Below, piece after piece: positions 17,168 through 27,790 of a DNA stretch of 64,000 nt (positions are counted from its first letter, which is position 1; the number at the start of each line of letters is the position of its first letter). The DNA comes from a bacterium (lineage in GTDB: Bacteria > Margulisbacteria > Marinamargulisbacteria > SXXA01): the NCBI GenBank assembly GCA_947465765.1, contig CANIAP010000001.1:9349-73348 (forward strand). The letters are read 5' to 3'. The notes under the pieces were generated by a model. It saw nothing but the letters and a program-made list of their open reading frames with translations. It ran no database searches and was not told the origin of the DNA. A program made the translations under genes and the position numbers.

Positions 17168-20100
17168 TTACCCGTTCAAAAAGTTGAGCCGATTTACAGC
17201 GACGGTGAGCGTGGTTAGGTTGGTATTTCGTGAGCCTTTGAGTTCCGATAGGGTTTCGAAATATATCTTGAAGTCCAATTGATGAAGCTGTTGGAGTGCG
17301 TTGATGGCGTCATCAATTTGTGGTTTTTTCGTAGTATCTTTCCCTGTCACCTGGCGAATGATGGTAAATTTTTGCATTTTCACGGTTTGGAGCAAAATGC
17401 CCTTATGCGACAATTCCCACTGGGTTCGTGGGTCGAGATTTTGGATGGCATTTTCGACCCATTTTAATTCAAATTTGGATTCGATGGTGTCGATGAGGTC
17501 CACGATTTGGGCGATTCCCTTGATTCCGAATTTTAGCTGAAGAAATAATATGTCAGTAATACAATTTAACCCATCGAGGCTCACCAATTGTTTGGCCGCT
17601 GTTTCGGGGAGTCCCCGGTGTTTCCATCGGGCCACTGCGGCTTTATTGCTTGTGATTTTGGGGAGGATTTCGGCGACTAACTGACCAATTAATGGTGCCC
17701 ACTCGAATGAGGTGTCAAAATTGGGGAGCAATAGAAGAGACTGTGTCCATTCCGTAAGGTAATGCTCGATCTCGATGAGTGCCGTGTATTTATCCTGTTC
17801 CGGAATGGGTTCCTGGATTATCAACTGGCGGAGTTCGTGTGTTCCGAATGATGAGTCCAAAAGGTAATAGGCTTTGGCAATTTGGTCCACTGGTTTTCCG
17901 GTCATTTGCTCCATCTGGAAGAAAAATAGAATTCCGGCTTGATTGATAATTTTGTTGGTGAGAATCGTTCCCAATATGTTTCGTTGAAGACGATGCTTGG
18001 GTATTTTTTTGCCAATTTTGTTTCGAATAGTGACCGGAAAATAATGCTCATAAAATTCGATAAAATAGGGGTCGTCGAGGATGTTAGAATTCATCAGACG
18101 ATCGTAAATGTTCATTTTTGTGTAGGCTTGAATAACCGCTAAAACGGGACGAGGCAACGATGTTCCTGATGCCGCCATTTGTTCAAGATCCGATATCTCA
18201 GGAATTTGCTCAGTTTTGGCATCCAAAAAGCCGTTCGCAACGTAGTTCTGAATCAATTTGATAAAGATCCCCAATTGTTTCTTTGACCGGATACTGTCCA
18301 TGGACAATAGTCGATGTTGGCCTTGGTTGTTGGCAAGTACCAACTCTGACACCTCATTTGTGGCGGCCTCGAGTAGCTCGTTGCGGTCGTCCATTGAATT
18401 AAGTAAGTTTTCCTCGAGCATTTGTTTGAGAAGAATTTTGATGTTGACCTCGTAGTCAGACATGTTGACGCCGGCGGAGTTGTCGATTGCGTCCGTGTTG
18501 ATTCGTCCACCTGCCAATGCAAATTCAATTCGGGCGGGTTGTGTGACGCCGAGATTGGCCCCTTCGCCAATGACCGCTGCCCGGCAGTCGGTGATATCAA
18601 TCCGTACCGAATCATTGGTGGGATCGCCCACGGAAGATTGGGCTTGAGCACTGCCTTTAAAATAGGTTCCGATTCCGCCGAGCCACATCAAATCAACTTT
18701 GGCTTTAAGAATAAATCGGATCAATTCTTCGCCATTGATGACCGCTTCTTTAATGCCAAGTAATTCACGGATTTCGGGTGTGACAATGATTTCTTTGGCT
18801 TTCCGTTCAAAGACGCCGCCCCCTTGACTGATCGCGGAGGGGGAATAATCAGTCCATGCACTTCGGGGGAGATCAAATAGACGCTTGCGCTCGTCCCAAC
18901 TAATGAGGGCATTGGGGGAGGGATCAACGAAAATGTGAGCATGATTAAATGCGGCATGAAGTTTGATGGTTTTACTCAATAATAGGCCGTTTCCAAATAC
19001 ATCTCCGGACATATCTCCAATTCCAACTGCAGAAAAGGATTCTTTGTCGATATTTTTGCCCATTTCCATAAAATGAAGTTTGACGCATTCCCAACCCCCC
19101 CGAGCGGTGATGGCTTCTTTTTTGTGGTTGTATCCAATGCTTCCGCCGGAAGCGAACGCATCGCCCAGCCAAAATTCATATTTTTCCGATATTTCGTTGG
19201 CGATATCTGAAAATGACGCTGTGCCTTTGTCTGCGGCGACGACCAGATAGGGGTCGGTTTGATCGTACGCGATCACGTGATGCGGATGTTTGATGGACCC
19301 GTTCGTGTCGATATTGTCGGTGATATCCAATAATGCCGAAATGAATTTCCGATATTGAACGATAGACTCATTGGCGGCGTCTTCTTTTGACGCTAATGGA
19401 CGCTTGAGAACAAATCCGCCTTTTGAACCGACTGGGACGATCACCACGTTTTTAGTCTGTTGAGTTTTGACGAGGCCCAATACTTCTTTTCTAAAGTCAT
19501 CATGGCGGTCTGACCATCGTATTCCGCCCCGAGCGATGGGTCCAAATCGGAGGTGGGTCCCTTCCATGCCGACGTCGTGAACGTAGATTTCGCGATACGG
19601 TGTCGGGGCAGGCATGAATTTAACCTTTTTCGATTCAACTTTGATTGAGATAAACGTGTCTCGATTGTGCTTGGGGATATAAAAATTGGTTCGGATAGTC
19701 GCCTCAACAAGGTTAAATAAGTGGCGCAAAATAGTGTCGTCGGAGACTTCTTGTACTTGGGTCAACGTGTCATGAAATTCGTGGCTGGCCCGGGGGAGTA
19801 ATACTTCGATTCGATATTCTTGTTTGCCAAATTGGGGATCGACCGAAAATTTGGTCTCAAAGTAGCGAAATAGCGCCTTTGTGCTGGGTTTGTGGGCCAG
19901 TAAGACCGTATTTACTTTGTCTTTGCTATAGGAAGTTCCCAGCTGGAGGTAAAGGTTGCGATAGGTTTGGAGGATGTTAATGGCCCGCCATTCCAGTTCT
20001 GCACCTAAGGCAAGCGCATTGAGGCGGTCGTTTTCAGTTCGGCCTTCGAAAATTTCAGTAAGTAGACTGTTTAAAATCGATTTGAGGCGTTTCTCGTCAA

Positions 20101-21940
20101 TTTTGCTGCGGTCAGAGTTTCCCAAACGGAATGAATGGATATACCCGTACAATGTCTCTGGGGTGCCCACTCGGGTGGTGAGTTCGTCGAACACATACAC
20201 CCCGAGATTTTGAAGAATGGGCATGATATTGATAAGGTCGATTTTGTTGCGGTTATAGATGCTTAGCATCGAGGCCTTGCCTTTAAGTGATGAGTTCTCC
20301 GTATTCACCGGGCCGAGGTCAAATTGGATCGTATTTTCGTGGACCACTTTTTCGAGAAACAGAATGTCTCTGACGGTTTCGACGGGGTTTCGACGCACGC
20401 GGTGATGACTGGGAAATGCATTAATATAGTGAGCGTATAGGCGTTGTGCCGATTGCCCTGGGAACTGGGTTTGAATGGCGTCTTTAAGGCGTTCTTCCCA
20501 TGGCTTAATAAGCTCGCGAAGGTCGATTTGCAGATGGGTTTCACTGGGTTTCCAATGGGTATCGTCGGTTTGCTCAAAATAAAAATGGAGTCGGGTATGA
20601 TCTGGGCCGTCGACCTCGACCACTTCAAATTGTGAATGAGGGACGTGTTGGATGAGATAGTCTCGAATGAGTTCGATATTGGTGCGTGTAAATAAATGCT
20701 CTGGGACCGTTACCATGAGTAAGGTTCTGCCGATGCCGGTGGCTTCACGGTGGAAGCAATAGACGTCGCTAGGATTCGTGATCGATAGCACTGATTCAAC
20801 GATAAAAAGCAGATCGTCAGTGGCGCTTCGAAACAGTTCGAACTTCGGAATCGACGTAAAGATACGAATGACTTCGTTGTAGTCGTAGCTGCCAGGAAGC
20901 ATTCGTTTTGCGTCGAAGATGTGTTTCATCTTCAAATGAATAATTGGGGTTTCAAGGTTTTTAGCGAGTAACGAGCTGCGTTTTAGGACCCCAATAAAAT
21001 TATGTTCTATGGTTTGTTTGTCGATGGTCATTCGAAAGCTGAGCCGCATAAGGTGCTCAAATCTCTGAATAGGAGAATTGATCGGAATCGTGTCAAAAAC
21101 AAAGGGTGATTGATTGGTCCTCATTCTCCAGCTATGAGCGGACAATACGCTGCCGATTTGAGGGTGATCAGTCTGGTAGAGTGGGCTCAAAATGCCCACT
21201 CCATCGAAAATAGGCGCATTTGAGTTTGCAAAGTTTAATGCCGCGTACCCAAAAAACGAAAAATTGTCTTGTTGAAGCCAATCAATCAGATTGATCCACT
21301 CGTCTTTGGTTTCCGCCAGAATCACTTTGCTGAGGCTGACTTCAGCTTTAAGTTGGTCTAACTTTTGTCGGAGGGGGGTCTGGCTGAGTTGGGCATTTTG
21401 GAGTGCATTCATGTGCCGTTGAATTTGAGATAAAAAGACATCGACATGGGAGTCGTCTTCGATACCCTCGAACTCGATATAGGTAACGGAGAAGAGTCGC
21501 GTATTTGCTGTGGGTGTGGAGATCTGTTGAACTTGATTCGATGGGTTTATCGAAACAGTCATAATCGGGTGCAGCAATTTTGTGATTTTGCAGCCAAATT
21601 CTTTAAATACTTCTGAAAATGTCATGACCATAAACATCGCATCGGGGACGACATATTCGAGTACTCGGCGAATGCCTACCAATTCTGAATTTTGGTCGAG
21701 AGTAAAAATTCTGATATCACCGCCAGAAGCCAACGCATTCGTGAAAAACTGGTAGCGCTCTCCTATAAATATTTCGAAGTCATCGGGCGAGTAATTTTTA
21801 AGCGTTCGTGTGGAATTGGCCTGGAGATAACAGGTTGCAAATTGCCTGAGAATGGGGTCTTTGGGAAGCGCATTAATAAGTGGTTCAATCGCAGAGTTAT
21901 CGTCGGATTGGGAGACAGGGGTCGATTGTGGTTTCGGCAT
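17168..21940 (-). CDS. gdh: Large NAD-specific glutamate dehydrogenase
   Basis: 1590 aa with ARGGIRWSDR, VKTQQTKNVVIVPVGSKGGF, YLVVAADKGTA, GIGDMSGDVFGNG and NTDAIDNSAGV. Confidence 0.95.
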   Translation of the reverse strand: MPKPQSTPVSQSDDNSAIEPLINALPKDPILRQFATCYLQANSTRTLKNYSPDDFEIFIGERYQFFTNALASGGDIRIFTLDQNSELVGIRRVLEYVVPDAMFMVMTFSEVFKEFGCKITKLLHPIMTVSINPSNQVQQISTPTANTRLFSVTYIEFEGIEDDSHVDVFLSQIQRHMNALQNAQLSQTPLRQKLDQLKAEVSLSKVILAETKDEWINLIDWLQQDNFSFFGYAALNFANSNAPIFDGVGILSPLYQTDHPQIGSVLSAHSWRMRTNQSPFVFDTIPINSPIQRFEHLMRLSFRMTIDKQTIEHNFIGVLKRSSLLAKNLETPIIHLKMKHIFDAKRMLPGSYDYNEVIRIFTSIPKFELFRSATDDLLFIVESVLSITNPSDVYCFHREATGIGRTLLMVTVPEHLFTRTNIELIRDYLIQHVPHSQFEVVEVDGPDHTRLHFYFEQTDDTHWKPSETHLQIDLRELIKPWEERLKDAIQTQFPGQSAQRLYAHYINAFPSHHRVRRNPVETVRDILFLEKVVHENTIQFDLGPVNTENSSLKGKASMLSIYNRNKIDLINIMPILQNLGVYVFDELTTRVGTPETLYGYIHSFRLGNSDRSKIDEKRLKSILNSLLTEIFEGRTENDRLNALALGAELEWRAINILQTYRNLYLQLGTSYSKDKVNTVLLAHKPSTKALFRYFETKFSVDPQFGKQEYRIEVLLPRASHEFHDTLTQVQEVSDDTILRHLFNLVEATIRTNFYIPKHNRDTFISIKVESKKVKFMPAPTPYREIYVHDVGMEGTHLRFGPIARGGIRWSDRHDDFRKEVLGLVKTQQTKNVVIVPVGSKGGFVLKRPLASKEDAANESIVQYRKFISALLDITDNIDTNGSIKHPHHVIAYDQTDPYLVVAADKGTASFSDIANEISEKYEFWLGDAFASGGSIGYNHKKEAITARGGWECVKLHFMEMGKNIDKESFSAVGIGDMSGDVFGNGLLLSKTIKLHAAFNHAHIFVDPSPNALISWDERKRLFDLPRSAWTDYSPSAISQGGGVFERKAKEIIVTPEIRELLGIKEAVINGEELIRFILKAKVDLMWLGGIGTYFKGSAQAQSSVGDPTNDSVRIDITDCRAAVIGEGANLGVTQPARIEFALAGGRINTDAIDNSAGVNMSDYEVNIKILLKQMLEENLLNSMDDRNELLEAATNEVSELVLANNQGQHRLLSMDSIRSKKQLGIFIKLIQNYVANGFLDAKTEQIPEISDLEQMAASGTSLPRPVLAVIQAYTKMNIYDRLMNSNILDDPYFIEFYEHYFPVTIRNKIGKKIPKHRLQRNILGTILTNKIINQAGILFFFQMEQMTGKPVDQIAKAYYLLDSSFGTHELRQLIIQEPIPEQDKYTALIEIEHYLTEWTQSLLLLPNFDTSFEWAPLIGQLVAEILPKITSNKAAVARWKHRGLPETAAKQLVSLDGLNCITDILFLQLKFGIKGIAQIVDLIDTIESKFELKWVENAIQNLDPRTQWELSHKGILLQTVKMQKFTIIRQVTGKDTTKKPQIDDAINALQQLHQLDFKIYFETLSELKGSRNTNLTTLTVAVNRLNFLNG

Positions 21941-22082
21941 GGGTGATTGTCCTTACGCTGAAAAATTGGAGTGATTAAAGTTGATTTCGGGGGAAGTTCC
22001 ATAGTAACGGAGACCCGTCATGGGGGCAAACGGACAGCCATCGTTTTTTTTGCGACCGCTCTTTATGGTACACTTCGTTTTA

Positions 22083-24107
22083 ATGACTTCTATCGTCAAA
22101 AAAGCGATAAATGCCCCAATAGGGCATGACGACCGAGATCCGATTGTTTGGAATCCTCCTGGGATTTTTGAAACACGGGTGGGCGATTTTATTCATGGGG
22201 TCAATCGCCAGTTTGACCTAACGATTGATAGCTACGCGTCACTTCATCGGTGGTCTGTCACCGAAATAGGACCGTTTTGGCAGACTTTATTTGATACGGC
22301 GGGTTTAATCTATGACGGAGATTCGGCTTCGGCGGTTGAACGTGCGTGTCTTTGGCCCCGGCCCCAGTGGTTTCCCAATGTTCGAATTAACTACGCCGAA
22401 AACATGCTTAAGAATAAGTCCGACCACCCGGCACTTATTTATTATTCGGAGCATCAGCCGGTTCAAACGATCACGTTTTCGGCCCTTTCGGAACAGGTGG
22501 CACAGCTGTCGGATTGGATGCGCCAGCGAGGAATTGGGGTAGGAGATGTAGTTGCAGGATTAGTTTCCAATTGCCCGGAGGCGGTGGTGGTGCTCTTGGC
22601 AGCGGCGGCGGTCGGAGCGATTTGGACGTCCTGCTCACCCGATTCCGGGACACAGTTCGCTATTGATCGATTCAGCCAGACACTGCCTAAGTTATTGGTC
22701 GCTGTCGATGGCTACGTATATGACGACACGATTTTTACCGTTGGAGATAAGATCCAAGAATTACGGGATGGGTTGCCGACGCTTCAGTCGATGTTGATTA
22801 TTTCTCGAATTCCTGGAGCTGTTTCTGACGACGACCTGGTATTTTATGAATCGATTGTAACGTCGGTCAATCCGGTCCCTGAACTGCGATTTGAGCGGCT
22901 TAGTTTTTCTCACCCCCTCTACATTTTGTATTCATCAGGAACGACGGGTAAGCCAAAATGTTTGGTGCATAGTGCGGGAGGCAGCCTTCTTCAACATATC
23001 AAAGAACATCGACTTCAATGTGATCTTCGACCCCTGGATCGGTTGATGTATTACACGACAACATCGTGGATGATGTGGAATTGGTTGGTGTCGGGGTTGG
23101 CCAGCGATGTCACGGTTGTCTTATTCGAAGGGAAGCCAGATCCTGCGGTGGTTTGGGAGTTTATTCGGACTGCTGAAGTCAATGCGTTTGGCACCAGTGC
23201 CTCTTGGATTTCGTTATGCCAAAAAACGAAGGTGGGGCCGACGGCTGCTCAGGTGGCCTCGATTTCCCTATTGATGTCGACGGGCTCCGCGCTGTTGCGT
23301 GACCATTTTGATTATATTTACTCAGAGATTAAGTCCGATATTCAAGTCGCGTCGATTTCGGGTGGAACCGATATTGTATCTTGTTTTGCACTGGGAGGGC
23401 CTGTTCCTGTGCGTCGAGGACGCCTTCAGTGCGCCGGTTTGGGCATGGCGGTGGAGGTGTGGGATGACGATGCCCAGCGGGTGTTTGGGGTCCAAGGCGA
23501 ACTGGTATGTACCCAGCCGTTTCCGTGTATGCCCGTTTATTTCTTGAACGATTCGACCGGTGAAAAATATCATTCGGCGTATTTTGAGCGGTTTGACGGA
23601 ATTTGGACCCATGGTGATAGTGCGATTCAATATGAGGATGGAAGCCTTGAAATTGTGGGCCGATCCGACAGCACGATTAAGCATCACGGAGTTAGAGTGG
23701 GGACGGGTGATCTCTACAATGTGTTAGAAGGTATCCCGGCGATTCATGATTCGTTAGTAGTTGGCCGACGGGTGGGGGATGACGAAGACATTATCGTGTT
23801 TCTGGTACTGAACTCAGGGGAACTTCTTGATGCGACTTTGAGGCGAGATATTCGATTGGCGTTAACGGCCCAATCTCCGTGGTTTAAACCAGATGCCCTT
23901 TTTAAAGTGTCTGATATCCCCGTTACCGCCAACGGAAAAAAGAGCGAAATTCTGGTTAAAAATCTACTCAACGGGACTCCCATAAGCAATTTGTCGGTGA
24001 TTAAAAATCCGAGATGTTTAGTGGAATATCAGGAAATTGCAAAACAAATATCCGATGCGGAGGCACTCAAACGGAGTCGATCGGGGCGTACAGAGTCTAG
24101 ATCTTAG
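22083..24107 (+). CDS. Acetoacetate--CoA ligase (acetoacetyl-CoA synthetase)
   Basis: WFPNVRINYAEN, LYILYSSGTTGKPKC, TTTSWMMWNW, SISGGTD and WTHGD...GRSD. Start uncertain: the ORF opens at 22020, and ATG 22083 follows a -10-like box. Confidence 0.9.
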   Translation: MTSIVKKAINAPIGHDDRDPIVWNPPGIFETRVGDFIHGVNRQFDLTIDSYASLHRWSVTEIGPFWQTLFDTAGLIYDGDSASAVERACLWPRPQWFPNVRINYAENMLKNKSDHPALIYYSEHQPVQTITFSALSEQVAQLSDWMRQRGIGVGDVVAGLVSNCPEAVVVLLAAAAVGAIWTSCSPDSGTQFAIDRFSQTLPKLLVAVDGYVYDDTIFTVGDKIQELRDGLPTLQSMLIISRIPGAVSDDDLVFYESIVTSVNPVPELRFERLSFSHPLYILYSSGTTGKPKCLVHSAGGSLLQHIKEHRLQCDLRPLDRLMYYTTTSWMMWNWLVSGLASDVTVVLFEGKPDPAVVWEFIRTAEVNAFGTSASWISLCQKTKVGPTAAQVASISLLMSTGSALLRDHFDYIYSEIKSDIQVASISGGTDIVSCFALGGPVPVRRGRLQCAGLGMAVEVWDDDAQRVFGVQGELVCTQPFPCMPVYFLNDSTGEKYHSAYFERFDGIWTHGDSAIQYEDGSLEIVGRSDSTIKHHGVRVGTGDLYNVLEGIPAIHDSLVVGRRVGDDEDIIVFLVLNSGELLDATLRRDIRLALTAQSPWFKPDALFKVSDIPVTANGKKSEILVKNLLNGTPISNLSVIKNPRCLVEYQEIAKQISDAEALKRSRSGRTESRS

Positions 24108-24933
24108 ATTTCCTAAGAAATTCAGGCGAGCCAATCGGACGAAGGATATCGGGTGCGTTATGAATTGCGTCTACGAATTGATCAATTAGGGCGGCATTGT
24201 TTTCGGCAATTTCGCCAGACGATAGTAGATGATTATTCTCGAATCCAATCCGAACATGACCGCCGTTGCGTACGGATTCTAACATGCACTCCAATTCGTC
24301 TTCGCCAAATGCACATACTGTCCAGTGGAGGGACACGTCGCTTAATGTTGCGTTGTGGGCTTCAATAAACGGAGCCAATTCGGATGGGTGGCCTTTTTGC
24401 CCGGTTTTTTTTCCCAATACGTACAGCAAAAAATACTGAGGTTCGTTGGGGACAATTCCACGTGTCCGTAACTCTGCAAAATATCGGACGTCATCATCTG
24501 AATAACAAATGTATTGAACCAAAATATCTTGGGCATGAGCCCAGTTTAAAAACGATTGGGCGGCAGGTTCAAACGAGGGGTCTGGAACCAATTCCCGAAT
24601 CCCAATGGATGCCGACTCAGGGACCAATGCCTGAATCGTTGAGATCATGTCGGGGGCTGAATATATCCCTACGGTTTCGGTCGTCACTTGAAGCACCATT
24701 CGGTCACCGACGGCCTTTCGAATTGCGGTCAATGCCGTCCGATACCGATCGGGGTCTAATGAATGGCGTTGGGCGTCGTCGCGGACATGAAGGTGAAATA
24801 ATGAGACGCCGGCATCGGCACATCGAACGGCTTCTGCTGCAAGTTCATCCGGTGAGATGGGAATCGTAGGGAGGTCCATCTTGGTTTTTCGTGCCCCGTT
24901 TGGGGCCACGCAGATTGTAATCGCGCGGGTCAT
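24097..24933 (-). CDS. Beta-keto acid cleavage enzyme (BKACE / Kce / DUF849 family)
   Basis: APNGAR, P..PDELA.EA..C, Zn-binding HLHVR, and GGHVRIGFENN. Confidence 0.9.
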   Translation of the reverse strand: MTRAITICVAPNGARKTKMDLPTIPISPDELAAEAVRCADAGVSLFHLHVRDDAQRHSLDPDRYRTALTAIRKAVGDRMVLQVTTETVGIYSAPDMISTIQALVPESASIGIRELVPDPSFEPAAQSFLNWAHAQDILVQYICYSDDDVRYFAELRTRGIVPNEPQYFLLYVLGKKTGQKGHPSELAPFIEAHNATLSDVSLHWTVCAFGEDELECMLESVRNGGHVRIGFENNHLLSSGEIAENNAALIDQFVDAIHNAPDILRPIGSPEFLRKSKI

Positions 24934-26270
24934 TGAATCACAGAGTGGATCGCTTGGGCTAGTTTACTGACCAGTTCATCAATCTGAGTTTCAGTGATGA
25001 TGAAGGGGGGGGAAATCATAATGTGGTCGCCATGTTTTCCATCTAAAGTTCCGCCCATCGGGTAGCACATTAGACCGGCGTCCATTGCCGCTTTTTTTAT
25101 TTTTACATTGATTTTGAGAGTGGGGTCGAATGGCGTTTTGGTGGCGCGATCCTGGACCAACTCTAATCCCCGGAATAGCCCTCGGCCTCGAATATCCCCC
25201 ACATTCGAGTGATTTCCAAACTCCGCGTGGAGTCGTTTCGAGAGAATGTCGCCCATCGTTCGCACTTGGCTGATCAATTGATCACGTTCAATAATTTCTT
25301 GAACTTTAAGTGCTGTAGCACAGGCCAATGCGTGCCCCATGTAAGTATGGCCATGTTGAAAAAATCCGGTACCCGTCTGAATTGCACTAAATATCGAGTC
25401 GGAGACCAGTAATGCGCCGATGGGTTGGTATCCTGCACCCAAGCCCTTGGCTATGGTGATCATGTCGGGAATAATGCCTTCTTGTTCACAGGCGAAGAGA
25501 CTTCCCACACGGCCCATTCCGCACATCACTTCGTCGAGAATCAGTAGAACATCATACTGATCGCAGATCTCACGGATCCGCTTAAAATATCCAGGCGCTG
25601 CAGTGACACAGCCCATGGTTGCGCCGACCACTGGTTCTGCAATGAACGCGGCTACCGTTTCGGGCCCAACATGCAAAATTTCGGTTTCTAGTTCATTCGC
25701 GACACGTAATCCATATGCCTCAGGTGTTTCATCCGATTTCTGTCCACGGTATTCATAACATGCAGAGATGTGTGATGTGGGTACCAGTATCGGGTCAAAC
25801 ATTGCGCGACGCCACAGATTGCCGCCGGCTGATAATGCGCCGATTGTGTTGCCGTGATAGCTTTGCAACCGGGCAATAACTCGGTGTTTTTGATTGCGGC
25901 CTGTTTCGACAAAATATTGCCGTGCCAATTTAAGTGCGGCTTCTACGGCCTCTGATCCGCCAGACAAAAAATAAACGGCATCGATTCCTGGCGGGGCATT
26001 TAGAGTTAAAAACTCAGCCAACTGTTCCATGGGCTCGTTTGTGAAAAAACTGGTATGCGCAAATGCCATTTGGCGTGCCTGGTGAGCAATTGTATCAATG
26101 ATTTCGAGGTTGGAATGCCCAAGACAGGAGACGGCGGCTCCGGACGACCCGTCTAAATAGCGTTTTCCATTTTGGTCGATGAGGTAACATCCATCGCCTG
26201 CAACGGCGATGGGCATCGACCCTAGCGTGTGGCGATGAAAAACCTTGGTTGAGGCGAGTGGCGGTGTCAT
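24930..26270 (-). CDS. Class III PLP aminotransferase (omega/beta-amino-acid transaminase type)
   Basis: YLDGSSGAAVSCLGH, SGGSEAVE, SYHGNT, LDEVMCGMGR, AKGLG and HGHTY. Confidence 0.92.
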   Translation of the reverse strand: MTPPLASTKVFHRHTLGSMPIAVAGDGCYLIDQNGKRYLDGSSGAAVSCLGHSNLEIIDTIAHQARQMAFAHTSFFTNEPMEQLAEFLTLNAPPGIDAVYFLSGGSEAVEAALKLARQYFVETGRNQKHRVIARLQSYHGNTIGALSAGGNLWRRAMFDPILVPTSHISACYEYRGQKSDETPEAYGLRVANELETEILHVGPETVAAFIAEPVVGATMGCVTAAPGYFKRIREICDQYDVLLILDEVMCGMGRVGSLFACEQEGIIPDMITIAKGLGAGYQPIGALLVSDSIFSAIQTGTGFFQHGHTYMGHALACATALKVQEIIERDQLISQVRTMGDILSKRLHAEFGNHSNVGDIRGRGLFRGLELVQDRATKTPFDPTLKINVKIKKAAMDAGLMCYPMGGTLDGKHGDHIMISPPFIITETQIDELVSKLAQAIHSVIQ

Positions 26271-26272
26271 GG

Positions 26273-27790
26273 TTATTTCGTCAATAAGAAACCGGTATCG
26301 TCGCTAATAATGCGATCCATATATCCTGATATCCATAGAGCGTCAGGGTTGCTTCTGGCGACAATAATATTGCCGAGAATGTCCCCGCCGGATGGGGCGC
26401 GTAAAACCTTCAAAATAATGGTGCCGTTGGTGACACCGATGACTTCCATTTTTCCGTATTCAGTTGACATGGTGTATCGGGCTTGTTTCTCTACACCGGA
26501 TAACCCGCGTTGGGATTCGGTATAAATTCGCCATGCGGTTTCTACGGGCACGGCGAAGAGCCGGTGGCCTTCGATTTCTCGACATTGAAACAAATAATGA
26601 TTCCCGATCCCTTTAGAGTAAAGCTCTCGTTGCAAAATGTGGAGGGCTTTGGCATCGTCGTTCACATCGGCAATGATCGGCGTCTGATTCTCGAGAGAAA
26701 TAAAATTACCTCGGGAGGTCAATCCTTCAACGGCGTTTCGGACGGTTTCCATCCATACATATCGGCTATTTACCTTGACGTAGTGCCCGTCATCAGATTT
26801 TTCAAGAAATTCATCGGGATGGGTGAAGTGGACGGCGAATACGACGCGAACCCGAGGGAATAGTTTATGGAATCCATCGAGCATTGCAAAGAAATCTGCG
26901 TCGACGCGCTCGGGGAAAAAGGCCAATTCTTTGGTGCCGATCCGTACTTGTTCGACCCCAGCCTGGGCGAGGCCTACCATAAACGTGGCAATTCGTTTGT
27001 CCATAAGGGCGAGAGGATCTCCGCCGGAAAGAAGTGCTTCTCGAATCGGATAAATTCGCTTCCCTGTTTCGGGGTCAAAGCCACGATTGGATTCTACCCA
27101 GTGATTATGTTTTCGGATGTAGTCGAGGTGGGCGTGGAACTCATCGGGGTTGATCGCTGTTTTGCCGGTTTTTTGAGTAAATAAATCGAGTCGATAACAA
27201 TACCGACAATGAGACGAGCAGGTGCTTGATACCATGAAAAGCATCATTTCATATTTGTGAAGTGCGCCAGGTACAGGAGAAAATTTATTCTGATTGGAAG
27301 GGTCTGCTTCCCCACTTAAATCTTCGGTTTCTTCGGCACGTGCTTTGACTAAGTTGCGGATGGGTTGACTCTTCATCGCTAACCGCATGTAGTAGTCGGT
27401 GATTTTGACTTTCATACGGTCTTCGATATCTCGCTCAGTCCCTCGAAGTTTATCAAATTCAGCTAACTCTTCAGGTGTATAAAATTCTTTAAATTCATCT
27501 GAAACCGCCCCTTGTGAAAAGGGACGAAATGACGCGGTTCCGGCGCCATGTTTGCCGCCACGATCATGTCTTTTTGCGGGGATCAAACTTAAAAATAAGG
27601 CTTGTTTGACTTCGTCTGCCATTGTTCTCAAATCGGTGGTGTTAAATGTAGTGAGATCGTGAATTCCGAATGTGCCTGCAAGATCGGCTTGGAGTGTTGA
27701 CGGGTGAGGTGCCGCATTTTTAGGTTCCTCGATCGTCGATTCAATGGTTTGGGTAGCGGTTATTTCTTTTTGTGTATTCTGGGTAGTCAT
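26273..27790 (-). CDS. KamA-family radical SAM/PLP 2,3-aminomutase, probably not lysine-specific
   Basis: GALHKY, CSSHCRYCYR, LLSGGDPL, RIGTK, HFTHP, NQTPII..VND, YLFQC, and the PLP-Lys region EYGKM. SD gaggag upstream. Confidence 0.85.
   Translation of the reverse strand: MTTQNTQKEITATQTIESTIEEPKNAAPHPSTLQADLAGTFGIHDLTTFNTTDLRTMADEVKQALFLSLIPAKRHDRGGKHGAGTASFRPFSQGAVSDEFKEFYTPEELAEFDKLRGTERDIEDRMKVKITDYYMRLAMKSQPIRNLVKARAEETEDLSGEADPSNQNKFSPVPGALHKYEMMLFMVSSTCSSHCRYCYRLDLFTQKTGKTAINPDEFHAHLDYIRKHNHWVESNRGFDPETGKRIYPIREALLSGGDPLALMDKRIATFMVGLAQAGVEQVRIGTKELAFFPERVDADFFAMLDGFHKLFPRVRVVFAVHFTHPDEFLEKSDDGHYVKVNSRYVWMETVRNAVEGLTSRGNFISLENQTPIIADVNDDAKALHILQRELYSKGIGNHYLFQCREIEGHRLFAVPVETAWRIYTESQRGLSGVEKQARYTMSTEYGKMEVIGVTNGTIILKVLRAPSGGDILGNIIVARSNPDALWISGYMDRIISDDTGFLLTK

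What the first reader, a model, noticed from the sequence alone, without database searches (positions are those of the whole stretch)
17168..27790. Candidate alpha- to beta-amino acid to beta-keto acid cleavage pathway, possibly glutamate to malonyl-CoA
Seen: a tight operon of KamA-like aminomutase, class III aminotransferase and BKACE (2-nt gap, then an ATGA overlap). It converges on acetoacetate-CoA ligase, which is divergent from NAD-GDH. kamD/kamE and kdd of lysine fermentation are absent from the window. Established: BKACE enzymes convert a beta-keto acid plus acetyl-CoA to an acyl-CoA plus acetoacetate, class III transaminases act on beta/omega amines, and acetoacetate-CoA ligase reactivates acetoacetate. 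Inference: Glu goes to beta-Glu, then 3-oxoglutarate, then malonyl-CoA plus acetoacetate, and on to acetoacetyl-CoA, with GDH balancing Glu and 2-oxoglutarate. This would be a carboxylase-independent malonyl-CoA source or an unusual glutamate catabolic route.
Basis: partly seen in the sequence, partly recalled or inferred. Interest (0 to 1): 0.75.

Follow-up and report, generated by a model that had tools for sequence, protein, structure and literature searches.

The report
Glutamate-to-acetoacetate route via beta-glutamate
Four conserved neighbouring genes in an uncultured bacterium likely break down glutamate by a new route: the amino group is likely shifted one carbon and removed, and the product likely loses CO2 to give acetoacetate (not malonyl-CoA, because the cleavage-family enzyme lacks its catalytic glutamate), which would yield two acetyl-CoA per glutamate.

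Summary
The genes and junctions are as described. The malonyl-CoA step is not supported. The DUF849 protein has Ile142 where true BKACEs carry the catalytic Glu (E171L abolishes activity, PMC11961710). It shows 5 of 6 residues of group G6, which is 'not BKACE, decarboxylation activity', active on beta-ketoglutarate (PMC4922564). The genome also encodes complete accABCD. Best reading (about 0.6): Glu -> beta-Glu -> 3-oxoglutarate -> acetoacetate + CO2 -> acetoacetyl-CoA.

Mutase, transaminase and G6 gene co-occur in the same 7 of 61 related genomes and are contiguous in 6. The ligase is adjacent in 5, GDH in only 2. The transaminase-G6 pair is common without the mutase in Alphaproteobacteria (G6 gene in 52 of 401), which suggests beta-glutamate scavenging.

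The mutase belongs to an unclassified KamA-like family with Arg at the LAM Asp293 position; its substrate is inferred from its neighbours, not shown. The host appears aerobic. The scan noted a similar trio on other DNA, read as malonyl-CoA (e1-7088175), and a sister aminoadipate module many times. Bastard 2014 was not readable and may anticipate part of this.

The parts
26273..27790 (-). KamA-like radical-SAM/PLP 2,3-aminomutase, 505 aa, unclassified 'QCRE/MSTE' family; predicted L-glutamate -> beta-glutamate
   Evidence: CxxxCxxC at C191/C195/C198; invariant R200 and K447; R404 at LAM D293 and S442 at LAM D330; AF2 pLDDT 90.6, best PDB fold 2A5H, E 9e-20; below all NCBIfam KamA/Eam cut-offs
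24930..26270 (-). Class III aminotransferase of the PRK07483 family, 446 aa; predicted beta-glutamate -> 3-oxoglutarate
   Evidence: NF005685 741.5 bits, cut-off 485; PLP Lys275; the same family lies beside the G6 gene in 25 of 30 alphaproteobacterial loci
24097..24933 (-). DUF849/BKACE-fold protein of group G6 (non-BKACE), 278 aa; predicted Zn-dependent 3-oxoglutarate decarboxylase giving acetoacetate + CO2
   Evidence: Metal triad H47, H49, E232 kept; R15, E86, I142, F209, N233 match cluster III (= G6), K175 in place of R; catalytic Glu replaced by Ile
22020..24107 (+). Acetoacetate-CoA ligase (AMP-forming), convergent with the operon; the true start may be 22065 or 22083
   Evidence: TIGR01217 679.9 > 520.9; NF002937 743 > 639; convergent with the G6 gene in 5 of 7 genomes
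17168..21940 (-). Large NAD-glutamate dehydrogenase, 1590 aa; a plausible regenerator of 2-oxoglutarate, but not a conserved part of the module
   Evidence: PF05088; adjacent only in G000 and G001, elsewhere in G009 and G027, not found in G010

Best explanation
The three co-oriented genes and the convergent ligase likely form a catabolic route in which a radical-SAM enzyme is predicted to turn L-glutamate into beta-glutamate, a class III transaminase is predicted to make 3-oxoglutarate, a DUF849 protein that lacks the BKACE catalytic glutamate likely decarboxylates it to acetoacetate + CO2, and the ligase likely makes acetoacetyl-CoA. A thiolase elsewhere in the genome would give two acetyl-CoA. 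If 2-oxoglutarate is the amino acceptor (inferred), the NAD-GDH closes the nitrogen loop: Glu + NAD+ + H2O -> acetoacetate + CO2 + NH3 + NADH. Shown: gene order, conservation, family assignments, active-site residues. Taken from the literature: G6 proteins act on beta-ketoglutarate and decarboxylate. Inferred: the substrates of the mutase and of the transaminase, and the direction of flux.
For: (1) G6 identity. [quoted passage not shown] The window protein has N233, F209, I142, E86, R15 and K175. Among its 120 best homologs: N 120, F 120, E 120, I 117, R15 116, and R 73 / K 42 at position 175. The S. meliloti pSymB and S. medicae pSMED01 homologs (43% and 42% identical) show all six residues, and both species have a G6 entry. 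(2) I142 aligns with BKACE15 E171, and E171L abolishes BKACE activity. (3) The ligase is above the acetoacetate-CoA ligase cut-off and convergent in 5 of 7 genomes from 4 families; acetoacetate is what 3-oxoglutarate gives on decarboxylation. (4) Strong mutase and G6 hits fall in the same 7 of 61 genomes. Ten contig lengths are shared between the two 120-protein homolog lists, three of them for mutases outside the Margulisbacteria clade. (5) The mutase has lost both LAM aspartates and has an invariant Arg at D293. (6) Its sister clade (CGRD motif) sits with 3-oxoadipate enzymes (PcaI 49, PcaJ 44, PcaF 12 of 74 loci), which ties the family to dicarboxylic amino acids. (7) The two mutase-free G6 loci with usable annotation carry a Glu/Asp ABC binding protein or a TAXI transporter; here the mutase stands in that place. 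(8) accABCD is complete and a thiolase is present.
Against: No activity has been measured for any of these proteins. Arg at the D293 position is also found in other KamA-like families that databases label 'lysine 2,3-aminomutase' (Streptomyces, Rhodococcus and Rhizobium plasmids), so it is not diagnostic for glutamate. The G6 data are second-hand, and my mapping of the table's active-site numbers onto sequence positions is inferred; position 17 is Lys here. 3-Oxoglutarate also decarboxylates on its own (recalled), so the in vitro G6 activity may not be the physiological one. An assay that detects acetoacetate would probably miss decarboxylation of other beta-keto acids (my inference about the screen). 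The host has a heme-copper oxidase (5 of 5), and radical-SAM aminomutases are O2-sensitive. Relatives have malic enzyme and PEPCK (4 of 5 each), so an ordinary route from glutamate to acetyl-CoA exists. Two QCRE mutases (L133, L134) lie beside a class I aminotransferase instead. Two genomes with the mutase gave no DUF849 hit (G061, G062; completeness not given).
Confidence: 0.6

Rival explanations
1. One reading: the DUF849 protein is a true BKACE that cleaves 3-oxoglutarate with acetyl-CoA into malonyl-CoA + acetoacetate, a carboxylase-independent malonyl-CoA source.
For: Group G4 BKACEs do catalyse this reaction in both directions (15 and 18 cases). R15 and R228 fit an anionic substrate. An earlier AI report read a similar trio this way (e1-7088175, unchecked).
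Against: The catalytic Glu is Ile and the Asp is Asn in all 7 margulisbacterial copies, whereas a 3-oxoadipate BKACE above its cut-off (L135) keeps both. NF053568 score is 90 against a cut-off of 350. G6 had no reverse activity. accABCD is complete and accA is present in 5 of 5 genomes.
Confidence: 0.05
2. Beta-glutamate utilisation or osmolyte turnover: the same enzymes and substrates, but beta-glutamate is the entry compound (scavenged or stored). The mutase runs toward L-glutamate or fills an osmolyte pool, and the transaminase-decarboxylase arm removes the rest.
For: The transaminase-G6 pair occurs without this mutase in most carriers: G6 gene in 52 of 401 Alphaproteobacteria, none of them with the mutase family. 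Beta-glutamate is a known compatible solute. GDH lies next door in this genus.
Against: No transporter lies in the cluster in the 7 genomes examined. The mutase is the first gene of a translationally coupled operon with the two degrading enzymes, which would drain an osmolyte pool. Decarboxylation makes the lower arm irreversible.
Confidence: 0.15
3. Same chemistry, different substrate: for example 2-aminoadipate -> 3-aminoadipate -> 3-oxoadipate -> levulinate + CO2, or another amino acid, with the ligase activating that keto acid or serving an unrelated ketone-body role.
For: The sister clade is tied to 3-oxoadipate enzymes. Arg404 is shared across families of mixed annotation. The ligase is above cut-off in 23 of 61 relatives, most of them without this cluster.
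Against: The two clades differ in the pocket motifs (QCRE/MSTE against CGRD/SITH) and have different partner enzymes. G6 activity was recorded on beta-ketoglutarate and not on beta-ketoadipate. The ligase scores as an acetoacetate-CoA ligase equivalog.
Confidence: 0.17
4. A remnant or variant of lysine fermentation (KamA, Kce).
For: Closest solved relatives are LAM 2A5H and Kce 2Y7D.
Against: LAM D293 and D330 are replaced; Kce E14 is Arg; TIGR03820 100 < 525 and NF052387 115 < 382. KamD was not found in 5 genomes, though the control was silent.
Confidence: 0.02

Closest known systems
DUF849/BKACE group G6 (Bastard et al. 2014, known here only through PMC4922564 and the NetSyn preprint)
   Same: 5 of 6 signature residues, 42-43% identity to the Sinorhizobium members, paired with the same PRK07483 aminotransferase
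   Different: Here it is in one operon with an aminomutase and faces an acetoacetate-CoA ligase; the proteobacterial loci examined have a regulator and/or transporter instead
Glutamate 2,3-aminomutase Eam (TIGR04368) and IdnL4 (incednine)
   Same: Predicted reaction L-Glu -> beta-Glu, radical SAM + PLP chemistry
   Different: Far below the Eam cut-off (92.6 vs 650). Eam is described for anaerobic fermentation and osmolyte synthesis, and IdnL4 feeds a PLP decarboxylase to 3-aminobutyrate. Here the product is predicted to be transaminated, in an apparently aerobic host
Lysine fermentation pathway (KamA, KamDE, Kdd, Kce, Kal)
   Same: Logic of alpha-to-beta amino shift, beta-keto acid, DUF849-fold enzyme, acetoacetate, acetoacetyl-CoA
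   Different: Transaminase instead of a dehydrogenase, decarboxylation instead of acyl transfer, lysine-binding aspartates absent, no KamD found
Group G4 BKACE (3-oxoadipate:acetyl-CoA acetyltransferase, NF053568)
   Same: Fold, metal triad, anionic beta-keto acid substrate including beta-ketoglutarate
   Different: G4 keeps the catalytic Glu and Asp and makes an acyl-CoA; the window protein has Ile and Asn
Sister CGRD aminomutase module with PcaIJ/PcaF (predicted 2-aminoadipate route; earlier AI reports only)
   Same: Same mutase family (41-46% identity) and same alpha -> beta -> beta-keto logic
   Different: Different pocket motifs, GSA-type transaminase, CoA-transferase and thiolase ending

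Membership tests
Canonical BKACE (acyl-transferring) | TIM barrel with Zn triad His-x-His ... Glu and conserved Arg | tested here: met
   H47, H49, E232, R228
Canonical BKACE (acyl-transferring) | Catalytic Glu (BKACE15 E171 / Kce E143) | tested here: not met
   Ile142; E171L abolishes activity
Canonical BKACE (acyl-transferring) | Asp after the metal-binding Glu (GxEDN; its catalytic role is recalled) | tested here: not met
   Asn233, GFENN
Canonical BKACE (acyl-transferring) | Score above a BKACE equivalog cut-off | tested here: not met
   NF052387 114.8/382; NF053568 90.2/350; NF053538 85.9/430
DUF849 group G6 (decarboxylating) | Signature N21, F18, I14, E6, R2, R17 | tested here: met
   5 of 6 identical, Lys for R17 (Lys in 42 of 120 homologs); mapping of the table numbers onto the sequence is inferred
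DUF849 group G6 (decarboxylating) | Decarboxylation of beta-ketoglutarate | not testable with these tools
   Needs an enzyme assay
Lysine 2,3-aminomutase (KamA/AblA) | CxxxCxxC, carboxylate-binding Arg (R134), PLP Lys (K337), LAM fold | tested here: met
   C191/195/198, R200, K447 invariant in 70 sequences; Foldseek 2A5H E 9e-20; residue roles recalled
Lysine 2,3-aminomutase (KamA/AblA) | Side-chain-binding Asp293 and Asp330 (roles recalled); TIGR03820 cut-off | tested here: not met
   Arg404 and Ser442; 100 bits vs 525.4
Glutamate 2,3-aminomutase Eam (TIGR04368) | Score above the equivalog cut-off | tested here: not met
   92.6 vs 650
Glutamate 2,3-aminomutase Eam (TIGR04368) | Converts L-glutamate to beta-glutamate | not testable with these tools
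   Inferred only from downstream genes
PRK07483 class III aminotransferase | NF005685 cut-off and PLP lysine | tested here: met
   741.5 vs 485; K275. I found no characterised substrate for this family
Acetoacetate-CoA ligase | TIGR01217 and NF002937 cut-offs | tested here: met
   679.9 vs 520.9; 743.2 vs 639
Lysine fermentation pathway | KamDE lysine 5,6-aminomutase in the genome | tested here: inconclusive
   PF09043 in 0 of 5 genomes, control silent

The most novel reading that the evidence does not exclude
An undescribed glutamate catabolic pathway (Glu -> beta-Glu -> 3-oxoglutarate -> acetoacetate + CO2 -> 2 acetyl-CoA) in aerobic Margulisbacteria, run by a new, possibly oxygen-tolerant family of glutamate 2,3-aminomutases. 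It also gives the orphan G6 decarboxylases and PRK07483 transaminases their role, a widespread beta-glutamate catabolic module in Proteobacteria.
Probability: 0.45. Interest if true: 0.78.

Novelty: new variant of a known kind. Interest (0 to 1): 0.63.

Why it matters
If true, glutamate becomes ketogenic in three steps. It yields two acetyl-CoA and one CO2, against one acetyl-CoA and three CO2 by the TCA/malic-enzyme route (stoichiometry from established biochemistry), with no B12 enzyme. It would assign a physiological role to two orphan families, G6 DUF849 and PRK07483; the G6 gene was in 52 of 401 sampled Alphaproteobacteria, so the fate of the osmolyte beta-glutamate becomes testable in cultured strains such as Sinorhizobium meliloti. 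The mutase comes from a host with a heme-copper oxidase, and oxygen-tolerant glutamate 2,3-aminomutases are named as a missing part for synthetic carbon-fixation cycles (10.1101/2025.11.21.689712, passages read). It also corrects a likely annotation trap: these proteins are labelled '3-keto-5-aminohexanoate cleavage protein' but lack the catalytic residue.

Tried and rejected
Malonyl-CoA / ACC bypass: rejected on active-site residues and complete accABCD. GDH as a core member: adjacent in 2 of 7 genomes only.

'The route is the only way to acetyl-CoA': rejected; malic enzyme and PEPCK are in 4 of 5 genomes, though not found in the 75%-complete own genome.

Gene fusion as evidence: a search among longer proteins gave 1 hit in 3229 candidates (P0288). 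It holds only the C-terminal part of a transaminase joined through an off-frame-looking linker, so I treat it as an artefact.

Arg404 as proof of glutamate specificity: downgraded after it turned up in other KamA-like families. A true Eam sequence for comparison was not found: 0 of 146 phylum genomes passed the cut-off.

Promoter and terminator scans were at chance level (9 vs 8.2 and 11 vs 7.7).

RNA runs: 4 runs from 2 studies held under 10% of the words. Sixteen short pieces were laid, none covers the DUF849 gene or bridges a junction, and no silent control was laid, so this is no evidence of co-transcription.

Papers not held: Bastard 2014, Ruzicka and Frey 2007, Tunckanat 2022. Supplements of bioRxiv preprints (NetSyn S3, ASMC S1) were closed and may describe the G6 gene context. 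No complex prediction was run.
Full report
Observation. The genome is 1.2 Mb in 19 contigs and 75% complete. Near homologs from same-order and same-class genomes are named Margulisbacteria by their sources (P0013, P0128, P0133), so I infer that phylum. The genome has a heme-copper oxidase and 2-oxoglutarate dehydrogenase, in line with the aerobic heterotrophy predicted for Marinamargulisbacteria (PMC6349859, passages read).

The DUF849 protein is not a cleavage enzyme. It keeps the metal triad (H47, H49, E232), R228 and Y144. It has Ile142 where Kce has E143 and BKACE15 has E171, and Asn233 where Kce has D231. Replacing E171 by leucine abolishes BKACE activity (PMC11961710 section 9). PMC4922564 (passages and supplements 2, 14, 16, 17 read) reproduces the groups of Bastard et al. 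2014. G6 is 'not BKACE, presenting decarboxylation activity', with 16 cases on beta-ketoglutarate and none in reverse; G4 is the group that truly cleaves beta-ketoglutarate. The residues that define cluster III, which equals G6, are N21, F18, I14, E6, R2 and R17. I mapped these active-site numbers onto the sequence by order: N233, F209, I142, E86, R15, and K175 for R17. The Sinorhizobium meliloti pSymB and S. medicae pSMED01 homologs show all six. S. medicae has only a G5 and a G6 entry in the set, so its plasmid protein is G6 by elimination; the UniProt number itself was not returned. Of the 120 best homologs, 120 have N, F and E, 117 have I and 116 have R15. All 7 margulisbacterial copies have Ile and Asn; a G4-type protein above its NCBIfam cut-off (L135) has Glu and Asp.

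No bypass of acetyl-CoA carboxylase is needed. accD, accA, accB and accC all pass their NCBIfam cut-offs in this genome, and accA is in 5 of 5 cluster-bearing genomes tested. A thiolase is present in 5 of 5; the copy here lies in a beta-oxidation-like operon.

Conservation. The DUF849 query matched 9 of 61 relatives, own genome included: 7 strongly and 2 weakly, the latter being canonical types. A profile of the mutase family matched 7 of 146 phylum genomes at E <= 1e-60, the same 7. They span 5 families. Mutase-transaminase-DUF849 is contiguous in 6 of 7. In G011 the transaminase-DUF849 pair and a divergent mutase beside the ligase lie on two contigs. The ligase faces the DUF849 gene in 5 of 7 and lies on another contig in G008. 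GDH is adjacent in 2 of 7, both from this genus. Ten contig lengths recur in both 120-protein homolog lists, three for mutases outside the margulisbacterial clade (P0037, P0081, P0102); this is indirect evidence of wider linkage. Kin are not independent, so I give no statistic.

The lower module is widespread without the mutase. In a sample of 401 genomes of the class of a Rickettsiales genome, 52 had the G6-type gene at E <= 1e-35. Only the centre genome, which lacks it, had the mutase family (at most 4 candidates scored per genome). Of the 30 best loci fetched, 25 had the PRK07483 transaminase within about 1.5 kb, and none had the mutase or the ligase within those flanks. All four plasmid loci I opened carry the transaminase and an RpiR-type regulator; the two annotated ones add a Glu/Asp ABC binding protein or a TAXI transporter. 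This reads as uptake and breakdown of a beta-amino diacid. In Margulisbacteria the mutase stands where the transporter would be.

The mutase. It falls below every KamA-family cut-off, but its model (pLDDT 90.6) matches LAM 2A5H far better than any other structure. The cluster cysteines, R200, K447 and R404 are invariant in 70 aligned homologs. R404 and S442 replace LAM D293 and D330; that these aspartates bind the lysine side chain is recalled. The family splits into a QCRE/MSTE group, which includes this protein, and a monophyletic CGRD/SITH clade (support 1.0 in a 71-sequence FastTree subsample). Of 80 metagenome loci, 74 were CGRD; 49 of these carried PcaI, 44 PcaJ, 44 a GSA-type transaminase, 12 PcaF and 1 a 3-oxoadipate BKACE. 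Only 3 were QCRE, and none of the 3 had the G6 module. The contrast suggests C6 and C5 diacid substrates. Against over-reading: the same Arg occurs in more distant families annotated as lysine aminomutases, so glutamate is inferred from the downstream genes.

Mechanism, step by step. Step 1, Glu -> beta-Glu: inferred. Step 2, beta-Glu + 2-oxo acid -> 3-oxoglutarate: inferred from the tight coupling of the transaminase to G6; several arginines (R13, R154, R175) are invariant in 31 partner transaminases, without proof of role. Step 3, 3-oxoglutarate -> acetoacetate + CO2: family-level in vitro support, second-hand. Step 4, acetoacetate -> acetoacetyl-CoA: equivalog assignment. With GDH the net reaction would be Glu + NAD+ + H2O -> acetoacetate + CO2 + NH3 + NADH. 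The benefit would be carbon economy, since relatives also have malic enzyme and PEPCK.

What is in print. Searches that found no description of this route: 'BKACE' (28 papers, 24 listed); aminomutase + glutamate + beta-glutamate (11 papers); any three of beta-glutamate, beta-ketoglutarate, 3-oxoglutarate, 3-aminoglutarate, acetoacetate (0); beta-glutamate with transaminase and catabolism terms (138 papers, none of the 25 listed holding beta-glutamate); 3-aminoadipate terms (0). I read passages or one section of the NetSyn preprint, the CORE paper, the flavophos preprint, the carbon-fixation preprint, PMC11284099, PMC1224877, PMC9169493, PMC9321204 and PMC6349859, and part 1 of 2 of the ASMC preprint. 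The library lacks most subscription papers, including Bastard 2014, which may already link G6 to an aminotransferase. The scan's own notes hold a similar trio in a Rickettsiales-like genome, read as yielding malonyl-CoA (e1-7088175; I could not see its sequence), and many reports of the sister aminoadipate module. I had reached both readings before those look-ups.

Verdict. The cluster is real and conserved, and it is probably an undescribed glutamate route through beta-glutamate that ends in decarboxylation to acetoacetate, not in malonyl-CoA. It is a new variant of the known aminomutase / beta-keto acid logic. Confidence 0.6, interest 0.63.

Noticed in passing
L062-L141 (metagenome loci), L149 (Mesorhizobium plasmid NZ_AP023244): Sister CGRD-motif aminomutase clade beside 3-oxoacid CoA-transferase A/B, a GSA-type transaminase, PcaF thiolase and ferredoxin; likely a 2-aminoadipate to 3-oxoadipate route, already noted by earlier scan reports.
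   Followed up: partly
L164:5161-10432, L165:2218-7496: In two other relatives a different KamA-like family (YYMF.ARD motif, 24% identity) lies in one direction with a class I aminotransferase, a ~190 aa unknown gene and an acetoacetate-CoA ligase: possibly a convergent version of the same route. Further genomes have this mutase 10-13 kb from the ligase, or without it nearby.
   Followed up: partly
L133:3652-6472, L134:1743-4582: Long-branch QCRE mutases directly downstream of the same class I aminotransferase type (46-50% identical to that of L164), with no G6 gene nearby.
   Followed up: partly
L135:2131-6002: CGRD mutase (frame apparently broken near its C-terminus), GSA-type transaminase and a true 3-oxoadipate BKACE above cut-off: an acyl-transfer ending does exist in the sister clade.
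   Followed up: partly
L022:475-5737 (G026): Canonical-type BKACE (Glu and Asp kept) near a class III aminotransferase (44% identical to the window's) and a dicarboxylate-symporter-like gene.
   Followed up: no
L029:1009-2835 (G011), L003:9770-11758: Longer (608-662 aa) divergent members of the mutase family; the L003 protein ends in a cysteine-rich stretch that looks like a 2Fe-2S ferredoxin (by eye).
   Followed up: no
window:27954-28916: GNAT-domain gene divergent from the mutase; adjacent only in this genus among the loci examined.
   Followed up: partly
window:15509-16813: DUF4015 putative glycosyl hydrolase downstream of the GDH gene.
   Followed up: no
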